Of a DNA stretch of 39,374 nt, positions 8,348 to 17,046 are shown piece after piece. Positions within the stretch are counted from its first letter, which is position 1. The number at the start of each line of letters is the position of its first letter. Below the pieces are notes generated by a model that saw only the letters and a list, made by a program, of their open reading frames with translations, had not been told where the DNA came from and made no database searches. This stretch comes from an uncultured Candidatus Saccharibacteria bacterium. Lineage in GTDB: Bacteria > Patescibacteriota > Saccharimonadia > Saccharimonadales > Saccharimonadaceae. The stretch spans positions 1-39,374 of the forward strand of contig CAMMXR010000001.1 of the NCBI GenBank assembly GCA_946500965.1, written 5' to 3'. Position numbers and translations under genes: made by a program.

Positions 8348-8572
8348 ATGGTATTTGGATTCTTTGGCTCTGGCGACTACAAAGACCTCAAACCCGCTGG
8401 CACCACCGTCGCCTGTCCCGTCTGCGGCGCACCTTGCGACAGCTGGACTGAAGCTCAGGCGCACTGCCAGCACTCCTGGAACAGCCAGACCTGTTCCCAT
8501 TGCGGTGGCTCTGGTCGCGTCTATGGCGAACGCTGCCCGACCTGCCATGGCACCGGCCGCGTCTCTTACTGA
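8348..8572 (+). CDS. Small Cys-rich zinc-finger protein (DnaJ-type CxxCxGxG repeats)
   Basis: GGAGGTGA RBS; CPVC, CSHCGGSG, CPTCHGTG; own TATAAT upstream and terminator downstream. Confidence 0.75.
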   Translation: MVFGFFGSGDYKDLKPAGTTVACPVCGAPCDSWTEAQAHCQHSWNSQTCSHCGGSGRVYGERCPTCHGTGRVSY

Positions 8573-8620
8573 ACCGCTCTGACAAACACCAACCCCACCC
8601 CGCCATCACTCATCACCCCA

Positions 8621-8643
8621 GCGGTGCCTTCGGGCACCGCTTT
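8621..8643 (+). terminator. Hairpin terminator
   Basis: GCGGTGCC-TTCG-GGCACCGC followed by TTT. Confidence 0.65.
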
Positions 8644-8686
8644 CCTAGTTTACAAACCCCTTCTTTCGTGCTACAATACTTCCATT

Positions 8687-8896
8687 ATGGCAAAAAAGAA
8701 TAACACTAAGCGTAAGCTCATCGGCCTGGTCTCTGAAGAATCTGGTATTCGTGCGTATTACACCAAGAAAAATACCATGAACACCCCCGACAAACTCAGC
8801 CTGCGCAAATACGATCCAATTCTGCGCAAGCACGTCGTCTTCACTGAGACGAAGAAAAACCTCGGCCGCAACGAAGTCAAGGAAAAGAAGCGCTAA
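8687..8896 (+). CDS. rpmG: 50S ribosomal protein L33 (Cys-free form)
   Basis: [33 protein letters not shown]; start moved to ATG 8687. Confidence 0.95.
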
Positions 8897-8921
8897 ACCG
8901 CTCCTTCTTCCCATTTTTTGC

Positions 8922-8951
8922 AAATGAGCCTTTTTATAAAAGGCTCATTTT
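8922..8951. terminator. Hairpin terminator, possibly bidirectional
   Basis: AAATGAGCCTTTT-TAT-AAAAGGCTCATTT. Confidence 0.7.
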
Positions 8952-9059
8952 AATATTAGAACGTTTACAGTTTGGCGTCTTCGTTAACAAAGTGAGGTCA
9001 AGACGCATTAATATATCGGGGCTTTGCTATTGGCATTACTTCCATTATAATAACCTTAA

Positions 9060-10472
9060 ATGAAATCCACTGCGTCACCTCAAGCCGCCAACCACCGCGG
9101 TTTTCTGCGCCTGCGTGACGCCCTCCGCCTCGCCTTCGTCAATCTCGCCGGCAACCGCCGCCGCACCTCGCTCATCATCATGACCGTCGTCGTCCTCTTC
9201 GCCCCGATGCTCAGCCTTGCCTTCCTCGCCCAGGGCATCCGTAACTCGATCCTAGATGCCTCCGCCCTCCAAACTGGCGGCGCCGTTTACATCCAAACTG
9301 GCTTTCTCGCAGATATTTACTATGGCGCTGAAGAGCGCGTCATTACGCCCGCACCCGAGAACGCCGACGAAATCCTGCGCGAGCGCATCGCTGCCCACCA
9401 CGGCGAAATCGTTGGTACTATCACCGCCGCCCGCCGCAGCCTAGGCTGGGACTATGACCTCATCAGCGCTTCCGCCGTAGAAGCCTTCCAGGGCGACACT
9501 GCACCGTCCACCAATCTCACCGCCACCGCGACCACCACAGACATCGCCCCAATCACCGACGCCCCCGCGAACACTCTCGCCTCACCCCTCCCCGCCATCA
9601 CCAACTCCAACCTCCATTTAAGCGACCCCGCCCTCTCCATCCTCGCCACCTACCCCGGCACCAAAACTCTCTTCAGCCTACAGGGCGCCAGCGCCGCCCT
9701 TAGCTTCTTCACGGACGCCATCAGCGGTACCCCCAGCCAAACTTTCCTAGTTGATGACAACTCACCCGCCATCCAGTCCTACCGCGACCAAGCTCTCGCC
9801 GACTGGCGCGCCCGCTGCCAACAAACCTACCAATCCACCTGCGACTACCGCCCTAGCCTCCCCGAACTCTACGTCGTACGCTTCGCAAACCCCCGCGATG
9901 CCGCCGCCTACCAAACCACCGCCGGCCTTGACTCGCTCCACTACGGCTACGATACCGACGCCGATTACCAATACCTCATCGCCGACCTCTTCAACAATAC
10001 TCTCAGCGCTGCCGGCGCTACCACCTCCGCCCAGTTCATCATCTACGTCGTCATGGGCGCCTTTCTCATCCTTGCCCTCATCCTCATCGTCACCACCTTG
10101 AGCCACGCTGCCGACGAAGACGCCGCTACTATCGCCCTCTATCGCTCGCTCGGCGCTTCTACCCGCGCCGTCCACCTCATCTACTTCCTCTACCTCTTGC
10201 TGCTCTGCCTGTTCGCCGCACTCATCAGCTTCCTGATTGCGCTGCTGTTCGCTAGCCTCATCGCCCTGATTGTCGCTGCACCCTTTGCCGCCTCACTCCA
10301 GACTTTTTACCAGCTCAGCGCCCCGCCCGCCGTCTCCTGTCTCGGTCTGGACGGCTTCGCTCTGCTCTTGCTTGCCGCTATTCTCCTGGTCGCGCCCCTC
10401 GCCCTTCTACTCACTTTCCACCAATTCTCCGCCAAACATCTGTCCCGCAAACTTAAAAACGAGGTCACATAA
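9060..10472 (+). CDS. FtsX/MacB-like ABC permease
   Basis: N-terminal LRLAFVNL..NRRRT+TM, large external loop, IALYRSLGAS, three C-terminal TMs. Confidence 0.85.
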   Translation: MKSTASPQAANHRGFLRLRDALRLAFVNLAGNRRRTSLIIMTVVVLFAPMLSLAFLAQGIRNSILDASALQTGGAVYIQTGFLADIYYGAEERVITPAPENADEILRERIAAHHGEIVGTITAARRSLGWDYDLISASAVEAFQGDTAPSTNLTATATTTDIAPITDAPANTLASPLPAITNSNLHLSDPALSILATYPGTKTLFSLQGASAALSFFTDAISGTPSQTFLVDDNSPAIQSYRDQALADWRARCQQTYQSTCDYRPSLPELYVVRFANPRDAAAYQTTAGLDSLHYGYDTDADYQYLIADLFNNTLSAAGATTSAQFIIYVVMGAFLILALILIVTTLSHAADEDAATIALYRSLGASTRAVHLIYFLYLLLLCLFAALISFLIALLFASLIALIVAAPFAASLQTFYQLSAPPAVSCLGLDGFALLLLAAILLVAPLALLLTFHQFSAKHLSRKLKNEVT

Positions 10473-11872: not shown

Positions 11873-11947
11873 AGGGGCGTAGTACAACGGTTAGTATAGC
11901 GGTCTCCAAAACCGTAGATATGGGTTCAATTCCTGTCGCCCCTGCCA
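11873..11947 (+). tRNA. tRNA-Trp(CCA), integration target
   Basis: AGGGGCG/CGCCCCT acceptor, GCGGT-CTCCAAA-ACCGT, TTCAATT loop, GCCA; TGCTATAAT upstream. Confidence 0.96.
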
Positions 11948-12682
11948 AATAGAACTTCGTTTTTTGAGGAAGAGCCCCCCGAGGGGCTCTTTCAGGGTAT
12001 AAGTGAGATTTTCACCGTCAAAATAGAGGTTCGATAGTAGCATACTTAGAATTTGGCGTTTCTCGTTCGAGTTCGCAACCTTAAAGATGTCAGCAGCCAT
12101 TGCAAACGCATCTGCCATCGTAATAAATGAATCGGCATCTTTACTCACGATCTGGCTATCGACAGTCTGTTCGGTATGAGTAGTTATTTTTACAGCACCA
12201 TTATTAGTTGACGTAGTAATAATACGGTCAACCGTGCTAGGCAAAGATAACGATCTGCCATCCTCCACGAGACGGCTTGCTGTGTCGGTATTAACAGTGA
12301 CAGATGCCGTTTCAGAACGATAACTCCTAATTGGCTCAACTTTGTAGTCGTCATATAGTGCAACTTCCAATTCGGCGTAGTTTGATTCGTAACTGATTCT
12401 GAGCACTGGACGTTCGCACTGCTTTATACGCTCAGTTTCAGCCTCGACAATTTGTCTAGCCTTATGTAAAGTCTCGATTTGGGCTTTTTCGTTGATTTTT
12501 AGTTGTCGCAGAGCAGCGATCAATGTGTCAGTTTGGTAGGAAGGGTTCGCAATCTGGTCAACATCAAGTTGGACCGTAACAGTCGCTATCCATCGTGGCA
12601 ACGAGCGAACATCAAGAGAAGCACTAACGTGACGTTCCGTAGTGACTGCATCTTTTGACTTCTTCGTTACTTTTTCGATCAT
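11891..12682 (-). CDS. Protein with large-serine-recombinase-like C-terminal tail but no recognisable catalytic domain; reads through attL antisense into the tRNA
   Basis: F..ANSNEKRQILSMLLSNLYFDGENLTYTLKEP resembles LSR C-termini (recalled); ends WQGRQELNPYLRFWRPLY, the tRNA antisense. Confidence 0.55.
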   Translation of the reverse strand: MIEKVTKKSKDAVTTERHVSASLDVRSLPRWIATVTVQLDVDQIANPSYQTDTLIAALRQLKINEKAQIETLHKARQIVEAETERIKQCERPVLRISYESNYAELEVALYDDYKVEPIRSYRSETASVTVNTDTASRLVEDGRSLSLPSTVDRIITTSTNNGAVKITTHTEQTVDSQIVSKDADSFITMADAFAMAADIFKVANSNEKRQILSMLLSNLYFDGENLTYTLKEPLGGLFLKKRSSIWQGRQELNPYLRFWRPLY

Positions 12683-12782
12683 TGCTACAACTTCCCAAAA
12701 CAGAAAGTAGCCCCTACTTCAGGGCTACCTCACTCATATTAAAATTATACATAAGTTTACAGCACTTGCCAACTTATTGTGG

Positions 12783-13766
12783 TTACAAGCCAAAATCAGC
12801 ATCGTTCATAATTGCCTTTGGCATCTTCGGATGATACTCATCACGATCTACCACGTAATTCGCTATTAACAACTTATCGTCTAGATCATCATACAAGATA
12901 GTTGCCATACAATCCTCTCCCTCTATATCCTGTAAGATTTTTCTTAGCGTATATTGCCCTCCCCTGAGCATACGAATAGCATATGTAGGAACTCCCATCA
13001 TCGACAGCATTTTAGGGGCAGTTTCATCTATACCGTTGATTAGCATCGGTGGTAAACTTATCTTGAATTTCATCATCTCATCAAGCCTATCCTCCGTAGG
13101 CATTATACTATTGTAGCAAATGACTGAGTTTAAATTCTTGCCAAGGAGTTGATATACAAGATCTTCAACGGCTAATGGCTCAGCAGCCCCATAAGCCTCC
13201 ACCAAATTGTCGCTCGTTGGGTCTTTCACGAGAAAATGCCGCAGTTCGCTCTCTATTGTTTTAATTTTTTCTTTACATTGCCAAGCGAAGTTAAGGCTCT
13301 CCACATAGCCATCCACGAGTTTATCCAATTTATCGTGTCCACAACCATAACTCAAACAAGCATCTGTGTTAATTTCACCGATAATGAAGGCTACTATCCA
13401 AGCAATCGCACTATCATAGTCGTAACTACCGTCATCAAATGATTTCGTTAACGTATCTACAGCCATATGATAGTTACACAAGTGCAACAGTGTTGACGTG
13501 AGATATGGAGTTCCCGTAAGAATTAAAAAGTCCATAATCGAATTGTGTAGCCTATCGTCGTAAACTCCACTAAATATTCTGTTCCCCAATTCAGATGCTA
13601 TATTGTAAATCTTACGATAGCTATCATCATCCACCACATAATAATCACGCACTTCCTCTACTGTAGTTGGTTCGCCTTTCTTGGACATTTCTTTGGCGAT
13701 CGCCTCATTTACAGCCTTGGTAGCCGATATCATTTTCTCGTAGCGTTCCTTCATATTTTCTTCCAT
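12783..13766 (-). CDS. Hypothetical protein (element cargo)
   Basis: 327-aa ORF; TGGTATAAT 7 nt before the ATG; hairpin GTAGCCC/GGGCTAC downstream. Confidence 0.75.
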   Translation of the reverse strand: MEENMKERYEKMISATKAVNEAIAKEMSKKGEPTTVEEVRDYYVVDDDSYRKIYNIASELGNRIFSGVYDDRLHNSIMDFLILTGTPYLTSTLLHLCNYHMAVDTLTKSFDDGSYDYDSAIAWIVAFIIGEINTDACLSYGCGHDKLDKLVDGYVESLNFAWQCKEKIKTIESELRHFLVKDPTSDNLVEAYGAAEPLAVEDLVYQLLGKNLNSVICYNSIMPTEDRLDEMMKFKISLPPMLINGIDETAPKMLSMMGVPTYAIRMLRGGQYTLRKILQDIEGEDCMATILYDDLDDKLLIANYVVDRDEYHPKMPKAIMNDADFGL

Positions 13767-13795
13767 ACCACCATTATACCATTTCGTAGGCTGAT

Positions 13796-14095
13796 TCAGA
13801 CTATAGGCAAGTCAAACGGCATATTCCCAGGTGACTGATAGTTTACCGATGGTCGGTTCAGCCTCCTAGCGTAGCCTCGGTAGACGCTACGGACAAGTTG
13901 CTCGGCATACTTCCATTGTAGGTCGGTTGCCTCCACTACTGCTTTATGGAAATCAGGGCATTTGTCGCACCAACGGTAGAAGGTGCCGGTGGAGGTTCTT
14001 GCTCCTCGGCACGCATCAGACACAGTGTAGCCGTCACGAATCAAGACTAGGATTCGCTCCGTGACTTCTGGAGTGAACTTCGATTTTCTACTCAT
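13796..14095 (-). CDS. Phage-type HTH protein (terminase small subunit N-terminal-like)
   Basis: SKFTPEVTERILVLIRDGYTVSDAC...TFYRW..PDF pattern. Confidence 0.65.
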   Translation of the reverse strand: MSRKSKFTPEVTERILVLIRDGYTVSDACRGARTSTGTFYRWCDKCPDFHKAVVEATDLQWKYAEQLVRSVYRGYARRLNRPSVNYQSPGNMPFDLPIV

Positions 14096-14291
14096 ATTTT
14101 CATCTTATCACGGCTTTATAGTCTCGTATTTTCGCCTTCATAATACCAAAAAAATCGGTGGAGATTGTTTGACGGTTCAGAATCTTTGATTCTGTCAGAT
14201 TTGCCGTAATTGAGATTCTAGAATCACCAACATTTGATTTTGCTACCTTCAGACAAGTAGACAGAGGTCAGGGGCGTGATTTTATTGTGTT

Positions 14292-14675
14292 TTACCGTGC
14301 CAACATTGCTCCTGGATTACCACCAAACCTCACAGGTAAACCTTCATACATCACTATTTCGCTCTGCTGATTTTGCCCTCCAAAGCCATTTATTTGCCTT
14401 CTGAGAGCCTTTTCTTTGCTTTGTGGGTGTTTTATCAGGTTTTCTCTCGTAAACCCCGAATCCAGCCCTTTTGATAGCCTTCCTGCCATACCAGGATTGC
14501 TCCTCTGTGGCTTTTTAAACTCAGCATCAAAGTCTGGATGTCGCCTTCGCCAGCGACTGAGGGTCATATCAGCCACCCCAGACATTACACAAGCAATCTT
14601 CACCGTGAATCCACTACGGACGGCATCGAGGAATCGTTTGGTCGTATCTGGGGTGTATTTAGTGGGCTTACTCAC
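14292..14675 (-). CDS. Paralogous HTH/terminase-small-like protein, probably frameshifted near 14512
   Basis: TKYTPDTTKRFLDAVRSGFTVKIAC...TLSRW..PDF; similarity to the paralog continues in the -1 frame (ATEEQSWY). Confidence 0.6.
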   Translation of the reverse strand: MSKPTKYTPDTTKRFLDAVRSGFTVKIACVMSGVADMTLSRWRRRHPDFDAEFKKPQRSNPGMAGRLSKGLDSGFTRENLIKHPQSKEKALRRQINGFGGQNQQSEIVMYEGLPVRFGGNPGAMLAR

Positions 14676-14677
14676 AA

Positions 14678-15418
14678 TTAGATCCTTGCCACCCTCTTCA
14701 TAATCAAAGCATTTTTTAATGCGAACTCGAAATCTGGAGACTGACCAGCATCGCCCAAATTAATTACCTTGATGTCACTACTCGTAATTGCTAACTTATC
14801 TAAAGCCTCAATGGATTGCTGAGAAACCTTTATCATCCATATCCAGCCCCCAGGCATAAAAGTTCTGTAATAGTTTGCTATACAAGGTCCGAGTCGCAAT
14901 CGACAAGGTATTTCGGTCATTTCATCAAGAATAGTATTCTCGCTGGAATACCTAGCAAGCGTAATAGCGTATTCTCCAAAATCATCCACTCGCCCTTCTC
15001 TCAAAATTTCAAGAATTCGATCGGTATGTTTTTGCCCGAGGTTAACACCAGAGTAAATCGGATGACTAGTCAGCGAGCAACGAAGAATATCAGCCAAAAA
15101 TGCCAGAGCAATATGTTCGCTATTATATCCATAACCAACTATAGCACTTTGCTCATCTCGTGGTTGATGAGGGCGACTACCTTCAGAGGTTAGCATTGTC
15201 TTTCGCTCATCCTCCCATCGACCAAGTTTTTTGTCACATTGATCGCACAGCAACTTAGTCTCCCACGCCTGCTTATTGGCATCACCGACAGTGCCATCAT
15301 CAAGCACCACAAGCCTATTGCCACCCCAATACGAGGACTTAGTCAGAAGATGGGATCTAACTCTATTATCTTTAGTAATTTCGTTGCCACAGATATGGCA
15401 ATAACTTCTTGTTACCAT
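14678..15418 (-). CDS. HNH-like zinc-binding putative nuclease
   Basis: CHIC...RSHLL...LLCDQCD pattern. Confidence 0.55.
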   Translation of the reverse strand: MVTRSYCHICGNEITKDNRVRSHLLTKSSYWGGNRLVVLDDGTVGDANKQAWETKLLCDQCDKKLGRWEDERKTMLTSEGSRPHQPRDEQSAIVGYGYNSEHIALAFLADILRCSLTSHPIYSGVNLGQKHTDRILEILREGRVDDFGEYAITLARYSSENTILDEMTEIPCRLRLGPCIANYYRTFMPGGWIWMIKVSQQSIEALDKLAITSSDIKVINLGDAGQSPDFEFALKNALIMKRVARI

Positions 15419-15826
15419 ATAAAGAACTCCTCATGGCTATTAGTTGGTAATATTCTTGAGTTACACCCCCCTATTATAACAATTCTTTACCCTAGTGCAG
15501 GTAATTCTCACGCTTATCTCGATCAGGAGGTGTATATTGAGGTGGGGGTATTAGTTTTGGGTTCGAAAATCCACAAAAATCACAAAATGATCAAAAATCG
15601 GGCAAAATTTAGCAAAATCTACGCATAGTAAGCAATCCCGTGCCTTTCCAATACCGACTTCGCACACTCGACATTAAACCCTCCAAGTGTTACCATATAC
15701 TTAGTGGGGTTGATGATTAAGTCCTTGAAGCCCTGCCACGATTTTTGACACCTTTGATGCCGTCTCACCCCGACCGCCCGACCCCCTACCATTTCGCTCT
15801 CGCTTATGCTAAAATAATCCTTAATA

Positions 15827-16522
15827 ATGTCGTCCAAGAACCCCAAAACCCTGATGCCGCTCCCCCATCCTTGGCCCGTCGTCTGGGGTTGTTTTTATGT
15901 CGCCATCCTTACCCTCGGGCTGCTCGCCCCCAACGGCTCCAGCATCACCTTCATCAAACTCACCGGCATCTTCCTCTGCGCCCTCTACGCTTTCTGGATG
16001 TTCCCGAGGGACCACCTACTCCAGCTCGCCCTGCTCGTCACCTCCGTCGCCGACCTCATCCTCGCCATTGACAACACTCTCGTAATCGGCGTCGTCGTTT
16101 TCCTTATCGCCCAGCTCATTCACCTCGCCCGCCTAGACTGGCCGCATTTCCGCCTCCCCATTCTCATCTATTCTCTCGTCGCCGCCACCGTCATCATCCT
16201 TGATATGATTCTAGATTTTGCGCCCTTGATGTATGTGGTCTGCTGTTTTTATGTCACCGCCCTCATCACCAACATCATCGTTTCCTGGCGCTGGTACCGC
16301 CAAGATCGCAACAACCTGCTCGCTTTCCTCGCCGTCACCGGCTTCACCCTTTTTCTAGCCTGCGACATCTGCACCGGCGTCTCCTACCTCTCTCGCACCG
16401 CTGTTCTCCCCGCCGTCCTTTTCGCACCCGCCAACTTTTTCGCCTGGGCTTTTTACTATCCTTCCCAAATCTTTATCTCAAACAGCTCAAAGTGTGCTAA
16501 AATACTTACCAAAGGAAGGTAA
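15827..16522 (+). CDS. YhhN/lysoplasmalogenase-like membrane protein
   Basis: Multiple TMs; ADLIL, FLIAQLIH, LFLACD motifs. Confidence 0.65.
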   Translation: MSSKNPKTLMPLPHPWPVVWGCFYVAILTLGLLAPNGSSITFIKLTGIFLCALYAFWMFPRDHLLQLALLVTSVADLILAIDNTLVIGVVVFLIAQLIHLARLDWPHFRLPILIYSLVAATVIILDMILDFAPLMYVVCCFYVTALITNIIVSWRWYRQDRNNLLAFLAVTGFTLFLACDICTGVSYLSRTAVLPAVLFAPANFFAWAFYYPSQIFISNSSKCAKILTKGR

Positions 16523-16545: not shown

Positions 16546-17046
16546 ATGGAAGGTAAGAAGAAACACAGCAGCAACAATCCCCGCGCCATCCTCGTTTTCG
16601 GCGCCCCCTGCAGTGGTAAATCCACATTCGCCAAACAATTCGCAAATCAGTTTAACGCCACGTTCTATGACCTTGACGCCCTGAAACGTGAACACAGCCT
16701 CTCTCGCGCCCTGGTCTTACTGCTCGTCAGCCAAATCGCCAAAACCGGTGCCACCCTCGTCCTGGAAGGCGGCAATGCCACCGAACGCGACCGCCGCGAG
16801 CTGAACGAAATCCTACGCGCCGCCGGCTATGCTCCTGCCCTCGTCTGGCTCCAGACCGACGTCGCCACCATCAAATCCCGCCTCAAAGTCCGCCTCAAGT
16901 CCGTAGAAGAAGCCAAAACCGTTTACGAGTCCCGCATCAAAACCCTGGAAGCCCCCTCGGAGCTTGAAAATCCCATTGTCCTCTCTGGCAAACACACCTA
17001 TCCCACCCAGCTCAAACAAGTCTTGACCCAGCTTCAGACCCGTTAA
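16546..17046 (+). CDS. P-loop kinase/AAA_33-like protein
   Basis: GAPCSGKST Walker A; NMP-kinase-like layout. Confidence 0.8.
   Translation: MEGKKKHSSNNPRAILVFGAPCSGKSTFAKQFANQFNATFYDLDALKREHSLSRALVLLLVSQIAKTGATLVLEGGNATERDRRELNEILRAAGYAPALVWLQTDVATIKSRLKVRLKSVEEAKTVYESRIKTLEAPSELENPIVLSGKHTYPTQLKQVLTQLQTR

What the first reader, a model, noticed from the sequence alone, without database searches (positions are those of the whole stretch)
11891..15738. tRNA-Trp element whose attachment core sits inside a gene, so integration swaps the protein's C-terminus
Seen: CCCTGCCA (tRNA 3' end, 11940-11947) recurs at 15731-15738, where host-like composition resumes. On the minus strand both copies encode W-Q-G. 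Integrated, ORF 12682 ends ...SIWQG-RQELNPYLRFWRPLY* (tRNA antisense). Circularising at the core gives ...SIWQG-FKDLIINPTKYMVTLGGFNVECAKSVLERHGIAYYA*, an open 36-codon tail at 15619-15730. Established: some phages carry attP within a gene so that integration changes a C-terminus, as in mycobacteriophage integration-dependent immunity. Inference: a recombination-controlled tail switch that may set directionality or protein stability. An 8-bp match alone is weak; the open tail and the composition boundary add support.
Basis: partly seen in the sequence, partly recalled or inferred. Interest (0 to 1): 0.75.

Follow-up and report, generated by a model that had tools for sequence, protein, structure and literature searches.

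The report
Dead relic of tail-swapping serine integrase
A 3.8-kb mobile-element remnant sits at the very end of a tRNA-Trp gene; in its intact relatives the insertion site lies inside the element's own serine-integrase gene, so insertion cuts off a conserved 36-residue tail that likely tunes the enzyme, but this copy has lost the enzyme's catalytic part and likely cannot move by itself.

Summary
Observation confirmed. CCCTGCCA bounds a 3,791-bp, 43%-GC island (flanks 56%), and the predicted empty site appears in run X18. Five related elements with a large serine recombinase (LSR) gene carry the same core and the same open tail at their far end. A natural 569-aa LSR (P0046) ends in almost exactly the predicted circle-form tail. 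The tail is under protein-level selection (pN/pS 0.31 in frame, 1.0-1.5 in shifted frames) and folds as three helices beyond the last domain seen in solved integrases. 93 of 117 complete related LSR frames read into an antisense tRNA.

It is a deletion chimera, a cargo gene fused at an 11-bp microhomology to the last ~66 LSR codons. Here the switch controls nothing.

The tRNA-derived tail varies freely, so the family switch is tail-on (circle) versus tail-off (integrated); its function is untested. Published precedents exist (Dehalococcoides DsiB, streptococcal rumA ICEs, phage Mx8). This scan noted the class before in at least 22 other genomes.

The parts
11873..11947 (+). Host tRNA-Trp(CCA), intact; its antisense strand supplies the integrated-state tail RQELNPYLRFWRPLY (stop at 11891-11893)
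11940..11947 (+). att core CCCTGCCA, tRNA-side copy (end of acceptor stem, discriminator, CCA); WQG on the minus strand
   Evidence: empty-site loose end in X18
11948..12097 (-). Relic of the 3' end of the large serine recombinase gene (AADI...SSI), all that remains of the integrase; also the integrase-side att arm
   Evidence: 86% protein identity to P0016 residues 483-547; 76-96% DNA identity to L111-L118 and L166
11970..11991 (+). GC-rich hairpin just behind the tRNA, inside the integrase codons; candidate terminator, not conserved in L116/L117
   Evidence: z -2.1 window, -3.4 L111, -3.2 L112, -1.1 L116, -0.4 L117
12087..12097 (-). 11-bp microhomology GCTGCTGACAT (AADI) at the deletion joint between cargo gene and integrase end
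   Evidence: X16 record 1 covers 12087-12097 twice with ~1.65 kb between; AADI in both parent proteins; DNA motif in 7 of 8 relative loci scanned
12098..12682 (-). 5' part (~195 codons) of a cargo gene of unknown function (P0002/P0004 family, 290-342 aa), now fused in frame to the integrase end
   Evidence: weak match to the gene at the same position in L113 (24%, E 1e-4)
12744..12772 (-). Promoter-like site (11 of 12 consensus bases) upstream of the chimeric ORF
   Evidence: consensus match only
12783..13766 (-). 327-aa cargo ORF, no family assigned
13796..14095 (-). 99-aa helix-turn-helix protein, terminase-small-subunit-like; also in L111
   Evidence: PF20901 E 7e-7
14292..14675 (-). 127-aa helix-turn-helix ORF, shortened by a ~143-bp deletion at 14318 relative to L111 (178 aa) and X18 record 21
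14678..15418 (-). 246-aa cargo ORF with CxxC pairs, weak HNH-like hits below cut-off; replaced by other sequence in X19
15619..15730 (-). Separated 36-codon circle-form integrase tail (FKDLIINP...IAYYA, stop 15619-15621) and far att arm
   Evidence: 90% identical to P0046 residues 531-569
15731..15738 (+). att core CCCTGCCA, far copy; host sequence resumes after it
15827..16522 (+). Host membrane-protein gene; its homologue follows tRNA-Trp directly in L018, which has no island there

Best explanation
The window holds a defective 3,791-bp relic of a plasmid-like element whose large serine integrase gene spans its own attachment site; in intact relatives, insertion at the tRNA's CCA end removes a conserved three-helix tail, which likely makes the free-circle enzyme the fully active, integration-competent form and the integrated enzyme a damped form that keeps the element in place. 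Shown: the boundaries, the empty site, the in-gene core, a natural tail-bearing integrase, selection on the tail, and the chimeric state of this copy. Inferred from structure prediction: the tail is an appendage after the zinc-ribbon domain, so the integrated protein keeps all canonical domains and could still excise, probably with a separate cofactor. Inferred by analogy with Mx8 and DsiB: loss of the tail lowers activity. In this lineage two successive deletions likely removed first the Rep end and most of the integrase, then ~1.65 kb more. Only the att sites, 66 integrase codons and the orphan tail remain, so this copy would move only with an integrase supplied in trans.
For: Same 8-bp core and open WQG-FKDLILNP tail 8.7-9.5 kb upstream of the LSR end in L111, L112, L113, L116, L117; the LSR frame of L112 is split by one stop. 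P0046 (569 aa; Resolvase, Recombinase, Zn-ribbon) ends in the tail. In-gene junctions also occur in L118/P0009, P0099, P0100 and L248. The tail profile hits 31 of 369 genus genomes, with 1 of 36 matches holding a stop. pN/pS is 0.31 over 12 disjoint pairs against 1.02 and 1.25 in shifted frames, and stays 0.31 over codons 12-31, beyond a ~25-bp DNA-binding arm. AlphaFold2 model (93 rows, mean pLDDT 81): helices 530-539, 541-548, 553-562; solved LSRs align only up to residues 516-534. The integrated tail is unconstrained. Mx8: the integrated form is less active (PMC4701971 passage). DsiB: proposed to be fully functional only on the circle (PMC3146451 passage). Chimera; Rep-LSR fusion P0011.
Against: No activity data for either form. 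The integrated form keeps every domain known to be needed, so it may be as active. P0046 comes from one 3.7-kb contig whose DNA I could not see, and could be a tandem-array junction rather than a circle. The longer allele in X16/X18 was measured, not read, so its content is inferred from length and from P0011. Few alignment rows hold both body and tail, so the model says little about where the tail packs.
Confidence: 0.5

Rival explanations
1. The tail is a built-in directionality switch: tail-on enzyme does only attP x attB, tail-off enzyme does attL x attR, so the element needs no separate recombination directionality factor (RDF).
For: The tail follows the zinc-ribbon domain. RDFs act at the junction of that domain and the coiled-coil base (PMC11795197 abstract), and coiled-coil contacts set direction (PMC3783163 passages). 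No known RDF family was found among the genes I scanned in intact elements.
Against: RDFs share no common structure, so one could be the tiny ORF or the SpoVG-like protein upstream of Rep (39 of 115 loci with enough flank). A freely excising integrated form would make the elements unstable, yet almost all database copies are integrated forms.
Confidence: 0.22
2. The tail is a docking or stabilising module needed only in the circle phase (for example to pair the integrase with Rep or a host factor); its loss on integration is tolerated rather than regulatory.
For: Purifying selection shows only that the tail matters when it is translated. The integrated protein keeps all canonical domains. Hybrid ends occur, where an integrase is followed by a different non-tRNA tail (P0029, P0048, P0062).
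Against: The in-gene core is kept across LSRs only 23-31% identical and across many tRNA targets, which is easier to explain if the split itself is selected.
Confidence: 0.16
3. The tail is a degron, as in mycobacteriophage integration-dependent immunity: the circle-form integrase is degraded and the integrated form is stable.
For: Many tails end in non-polar residues (-IA, -YA, -VI, -LF). The genome has ClpP and tmRNA. Precedent in the BPs repressor (PMC4557955 abstract).
Against: Invariant residues are W1, I8, N10, P11 and near-invariant D6, K13, Y14, while the ends vary in length and sequence, with no shared -AA. An unstable circle form would hinder the integration it must perform.
Confidence: 0.08
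4. The chimeric 263-aa ORF in this window is a new functional protein whose own end is switched by excision.
For: The fusion is in frame, has a good promoter-like site, and recurs in several assemblies (P0001 cluster of 6 members; run X19 is a divergent strain with the same joint).
Against: Sibling strains frameshift or delete its end: +C at 11974 in X13, -1 at 11975 in X19, P0003, P0005, P0085, P0087. No circle junction in 8 runs laid.
Confidence: 0.04

Closest known systems
Dehalococcoides ssrA-island integrase DsiB (McMurdie et al. 2011, PMC3146451; passages read)
   Same: A ~540-aa large serine recombinase whose 3' end always overlaps attL and runs antisense into a small RNA gene. The authors suggest it is fully functional only on the circle or behind an adjacent island.
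   Different: Targets tmRNA, not tRNA CCA ends, and comes with DsiA/ParB/Mom genes rather than SpoVG-like plus G2P-type Rep. The passages I read show no conserved circle-form tail and no selection test.
Streptococcal ICEs integrated in rumA (Ambroset et al. 2016, PMC4701971; passage read)
   Same: [quoted passage not shown]
   Different: Protein-coding target; conjugative elements; function untested in the passage read.
Myxococcus phage Mx8 integrase (as described in PMC4701971; primary papers not held)
   Same: attP inside the integrase gene; integration swaps 112 residues for 13 and lowers activity. That Mx8 inserts in a tRNA gene is recalled, not read.
   Different: Tyrosine recombinase of a phage; a much larger part is lost.
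Phage large serine integrases (A118/LI, TP901-1, Bxb1, phiC31)
   Same: Catalytic, recombinase, zinc-ribbon and coiled-coil architecture in the intact relatives.
   Different: The solved chains align only up to residue 516-534 of P0046 and have no counterpart of the tail. Their excision needs a separate RDF.
Mycobacteriophage BPs integration-dependent immunity (PMC4557955; abstract read)
   Same: attP inside a gene; integration removes about 33 C-terminal residues.
   Different: The gene is the repressor, and the removed part is an ssrA-like degron.

Membership tests
Large serine recombinase (window ORF 11891-12682) | N-terminal catalytic Resolvase domain (PF00239) | tested here: not met
   0 Pfam families at E 0.1; residues 1-197 match the P0002/P0004 cargo family
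Large serine recombinase (window ORF 11891-12682) | Recombinase (PF07508), zinc ribbon (PF13408) and coiled coil | tested here: not met
   Only P0016 residues 483-547 are found in the contig
Large serine recombinase (intact relatives P0016, P0046) | PF00239 + PF07508 + PF13408 + coiled coil | tested here: met
   All three above cut-off; helices 376-464 in the model; best fold matches are serine integrases
Large serine recombinase (intact relatives) | 2-bp crossover within ~50-bp att sites; directional recombination | not testable with these tools
   Shared cores shrink to 6-7 nt in L245, L260 and L261; no clear att palindrome in L111
Large serine recombinase (intact relatives) | Separate RDF for excision | tested here: inconclusive
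   No RDF family among the genes scanned; RDFs lack a common fold
DsiB-type self-overlapping serine integrase | Gene 3' end overlaps attL and reads antisense into the target RNA gene | tested here: met
   93 of 117 complete frames
DsiB-type self-overlapping serine integrase | Target is ssrA (tmRNA) | tested here: not met
   Target is tRNA-Trp; the genome's tmRNA is on another contig
DsiB-type self-overlapping serine integrase | Six-gene module with second recombinase DsiA, ParB, Mom | tested here: inconclusive
   Genes next to the LSR in five elements are Rep and SpoVG-like; not every cargo ORF was scanned
Mx8-type integrase | attP inside the integrase gene | tested here: met
   P0046, L118, L248 junctions
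Mx8-type integrase | Tyrosine recombinase | tested here: not met
   Serine family
Mx8-type integrase | Integrated form less active | not testable with these tools
   Needs biochemistry
Integration-dependent immunity (BPs) | attP inside the repressor gene | tested here: not met
   The core lies in integrase codons
Integration-dependent immunity (BPs) | C-terminal ssrA-like degron on the free form | tested here: inconclusive
   Ends are non-polar but variable, with no conserved -AA

The most novel reading that the evidence does not exclude
A very large clade of Patescibacteria serine integrases that target tRNA CCA ends uses its own recombination event as the directionality control: a conserved three-helix tail present only on the circle licenses integration, and its removal converts the same enzyme into the excisase, with no RDF. 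In tandem arrays, neighbouring elements hand their tails to one another.
Probability: 0.2. Interest if true: 0.8.

Novelty: new variant of a known kind. Interest (0 to 1): 0.45.

Why it matters
How serine integrases without a recognisable directionality factor choose between integration and excision is an open question. This family makes it directly testable with two natural forms of one protein that differ by 36 residues. Database entries of these integrases are nearly all the truncated, tRNA-tailed form, so screens that clone them as annotated may be testing the wrong protein. They target conserved tRNA 3' ends with a 6-11-bp core, which could be useful for engineering Patescibacteria and other hosts. 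The window's copy is a poor experimental object; its value is the exact empty site and a record of stepwise decay.

Tried and rejected
1. Circle junction of this copy: no backward joint in 8 of 23 listed runs laid (X16-X19; X1, X3, X10, X13). All are contigs, so absence is not shown; X1 and X3 may be this DNA's source.
2. My first reading, that the longer allele in X16/X18 is the intact element, was rejected. It has about 1,646 extra bases, whereas the intact layout needs about 3.4 kb (rest of cargo gene, at least 282; 511; 1,186; 1,440).
3. A homologue of the cargo gene P0004 was not found in 368 other genus genomes.
4. Searches for full-length tail-bearing integrases by region and by tail profile among 50% representatives (23 hits, none longer than 221 aa) found none; the cluster look-up did.
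5. The single-sequence fold was unusable (pLDDT 45.6).
6. Complex prediction of the tail-less integrase C-terminal half with the SpoVG-like protein gave no answer (score 0.00); it is no evidence either way.
7. No att palindrome stood out in L111 (best 11 of 30).
8. The 327-aa cargo ORF stayed unassigned.
9. The hybrid tail of P0048 had no clear attR counterpart in my loci.
10. Literature: four searches returned 0 papers and one returned a review of archaeal tyrosine recombinases (listing only). PMC12424338 (whole text) and PMC9580842, PMC13626063, PMC12884075 (passages) said nothing on this arrangement. Mageeney 2020 and the Mx8 primary papers were not held and may bear on novelty. No supplements were read.
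11. The motif test used a motif I chose, so it is descriptive, not independent.
12. One search ended in a script error after printing pN/pS 0.38 (Trp clade, all pairs, not independent); one search repeats the test on disjoint pairs. The two tail sets overlap and are not separate evidence.
Full report
Observation. The tRNA-Trp(CCA) lies at 11873-11947. Its last eight bases, CCCTGCCA, recur at 15731-15738, the only other copy in the contig. Between them lie 3.8 kb at 42.7% GC, against 56% on both sides. Taken alone, the 8-mer (0.055 expected in 4 kb) and a 36-codon open frame (P about 0.09) are only suggestive. The genome has 735 kb in 65 contigs. The closest integrase relatives come from records titled Candidatus Saccharibacteria, and most runs that hold the stretch are labelled chicken gut metagenome.

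The boundaries are exact. In run X18, one contig continues from 11947 with CGATTTTT and two contigs reach 15731 from TCAATTCCTGTCGC. That is the tRNA end joined to the host sequence after the second core. In L018 the homologue of gene 15827 follows tRNA-Trp directly. No circle junction for this copy appeared in the eight runs laid, but contigs drop rare forms.

The ORF is a chimera. It has no Pfam hit. Residues 1-197 match a family of 290-342-aa proteins that continue differently after AADI (P0002, P0004). The rest is 86% identical to residues 483-547 of a 547-aa large serine recombinase. The joint is the 11-bp word GCTGCTGACAT at 12087-12097. X16 record 1 covers that word twice with about 1,646 bases between, and X18 record 21 breaks at the same place. 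X19, a divergent strain, has the same deletion as the window, so it is not an assembly error. The longer allele is too short for the intact layout (about 3.4 kb). It fits P0011, a fusion of the element's Rep to the last ~160 integrase residues, so I infer two successive deletions. A third loss of ~143 bp shortens the HTH gene at 14318. The chimera's end is frameshifted or deleted in X13, X19, P0003, P0005, P0085 and P0087. In this window the swap therefore acts on a non-enzyme. The genome's two other LSR matches are distant (22-25%) and lie near tRNA-Leu and tRNA-Lys.

The family mechanism is real. L111, L112, L113, L116 and L117 are 8.7-9.5-kb elements whose LSR gene ends in antisense tRNA-Trp (L112's frame is split by one stop). 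Each has the same 8-bp core at the far end, followed in frame by WQG-FKDLILNP... of 36-39 residues, with unrelated host sequence before the core. Their shared core is a 350-410-aa gene, a tiny ORF, a SpoVG-like gene, a G2P-type replication initiator (PF05144) and the LSR. SpoVG-like and Rep genes were found in 39 and 37 of 115 loci with at least 2.5 kb upstream. The predicted circle-form protein exists: P0046, 569 aa, with all three LSR domains, ends SVWQGFKDLILNPTKY...ERHGIACYA. It is one protein among the members listed and rests on one contig. In-gene junctions also occur in L118/P0009, P0099, P0100 and L248.

The tail is selected as protein. A 12-row tail profile hit 31 of 369 genus genomes, with one internal stop in 36 matches. 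Of the 30 loci returned, 29 gave distinct tails of at least 31 codons. Twelve disjoint nearest pairs gave 65.8 synonymous changes in 212.8 sites and 76.2 non-synonymous in 795.2, so pN/pS is 0.31, against 1.02 and 1.25 in the shifted frames. Over codons 12-31 the values are 0.31 against 0.96 and 1.48. A serine integrase contacts about 25 bp per half-site (PMC3783163 passages), so DNA binding does not explain this.

It is widespread. Of 136 loci fetched with P0016 (redundant), 117 had a complete frame and 93 of those ran into an antisense tRNA of many kinds. Several of the remaining 24 run into tRNA-like sequence that ARAGORN missed, and a few end in helical tails (L055, L081, L096, L098). The tRNA-derived ends range from a stop about 10 nt inside the tRNA to more than 60 unrelated residues, so they carry no common function. 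Among 72 non-redundant loci with at least 2 kb upstream, 161 core-like copies were found. An acidic-hydrophobic-R/I motif followed 14 of them in frame (13 loci; Trp, Gln, Asn, Leu, Gly targets), against 1 and 0 in the other frames (motif chosen, so descriptive).

Structure. AlphaFold2 on P0046 with 93 rows gave mean pLDDT 81 and three tail helices at 530-539, 541-548 and 553-562. The best matches are serine integrases, and their alignments stop at residues 516-534, at or just before the crossover at W531. The integrated enzyme therefore keeps every canonical domain and loses an appendage.

Mechanism. I commit to a tail-on/tail-off rheostat: full integration activity from the circle and damped activity once integrated (0.5). 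Rivals are an RDF-free directionality switch (0.22), a circle-phase docking module (0.16), a degron (0.08) and a functional chimera (0.04). None was tested at the bench.

Comparison with what is known. McMurdie et al. [quoted passage not shown] Ambroset et al. 2016 report att sites inside serine integrase genes of rumA ICEs and cite Mx8, whose integrated form is less active (PMC4701971, passage). BPs uses the same trick on a repressor with a degron (PMC4557955, abstract). I found no paper on the tRNA-targeting Patescibacteria clade, but Mageeney 2020 and the Mx8 papers were not held. This scan noted the class in at least 22 genomes, and the DsiB lead came from those notes.

Verdict. The principle is known; the tRNA-CCA-targeting clade with a conserved, selected tail is a new variant of it. 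The window's copy is a dead relic. Interest 0.45.

Noticed in passing
G000:C3 8333-16575: A second LSR frame (8407-10014, minus, 535 codons stop to stop) overlaps the 3' end of tRNA-Leu(gag) by 16 nt. An 11-bp copy of the core at 16575 is followed in frame by an open stretch of about 44 codons: likely a second, 8.2-kb element of the same design in this genome.
   Followed up: partly
G000:C24 6496-7922: A truncated LSR frame (306 codons) upstream of tRNA-Lys(ctt).
   Followed up: no
L118:9758-11387: An integrase C-terminal piece fused to an unrelated N-terminus sits in the circle-type junction about 1 kb from an apparently unoccupied tRNA-Trp end (P0009).
   Followed up: partly
L145:3791 and 4163; L198:4538 and 4615; L199 (gene orientation 13105 and 13236): Two core copies close together at the far end of an element, suggesting serial integrations; in L145 both carry tails.
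   Followed up: no
P0029, P0048, P0103, P0104, P0062, P0039: Integrases or their fragments that continue after WQG/WLG/WQ with other non-tRNA tails, possibly tails borrowed from a neighbouring element or secondary sites.
   Followed up: partly
G288:C22, G219:C9, G374:C34, P0008, P0010-P0012: Relics that keep only the last 70-190 integrase codons next to the tRNA recur in this genus, so the window's decay pattern is common.
   Followed up: no
window 11970-11991: Terminator-like hairpin encoded within the integrase codons KEPLGGLF, with changes on both arms or loop in L112 but absent in L116/L117.
   Followed up: partly
window 13796-14675: Two tandem terminase-small-subunit-like HTH genes near the far end; one or two similar genes lie there in L111, L112, L116 and L117, a possible packaging-hijack function.
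   Followed up: no
L111:5166-7093; L113:4536-6664: Intact relatives carry ORFs that begin like C5 cytosine methyltransferases (my reading of their N-termini, not scanned) with a neighbouring gene, likely restriction-modification cargo.
   Followed up: no
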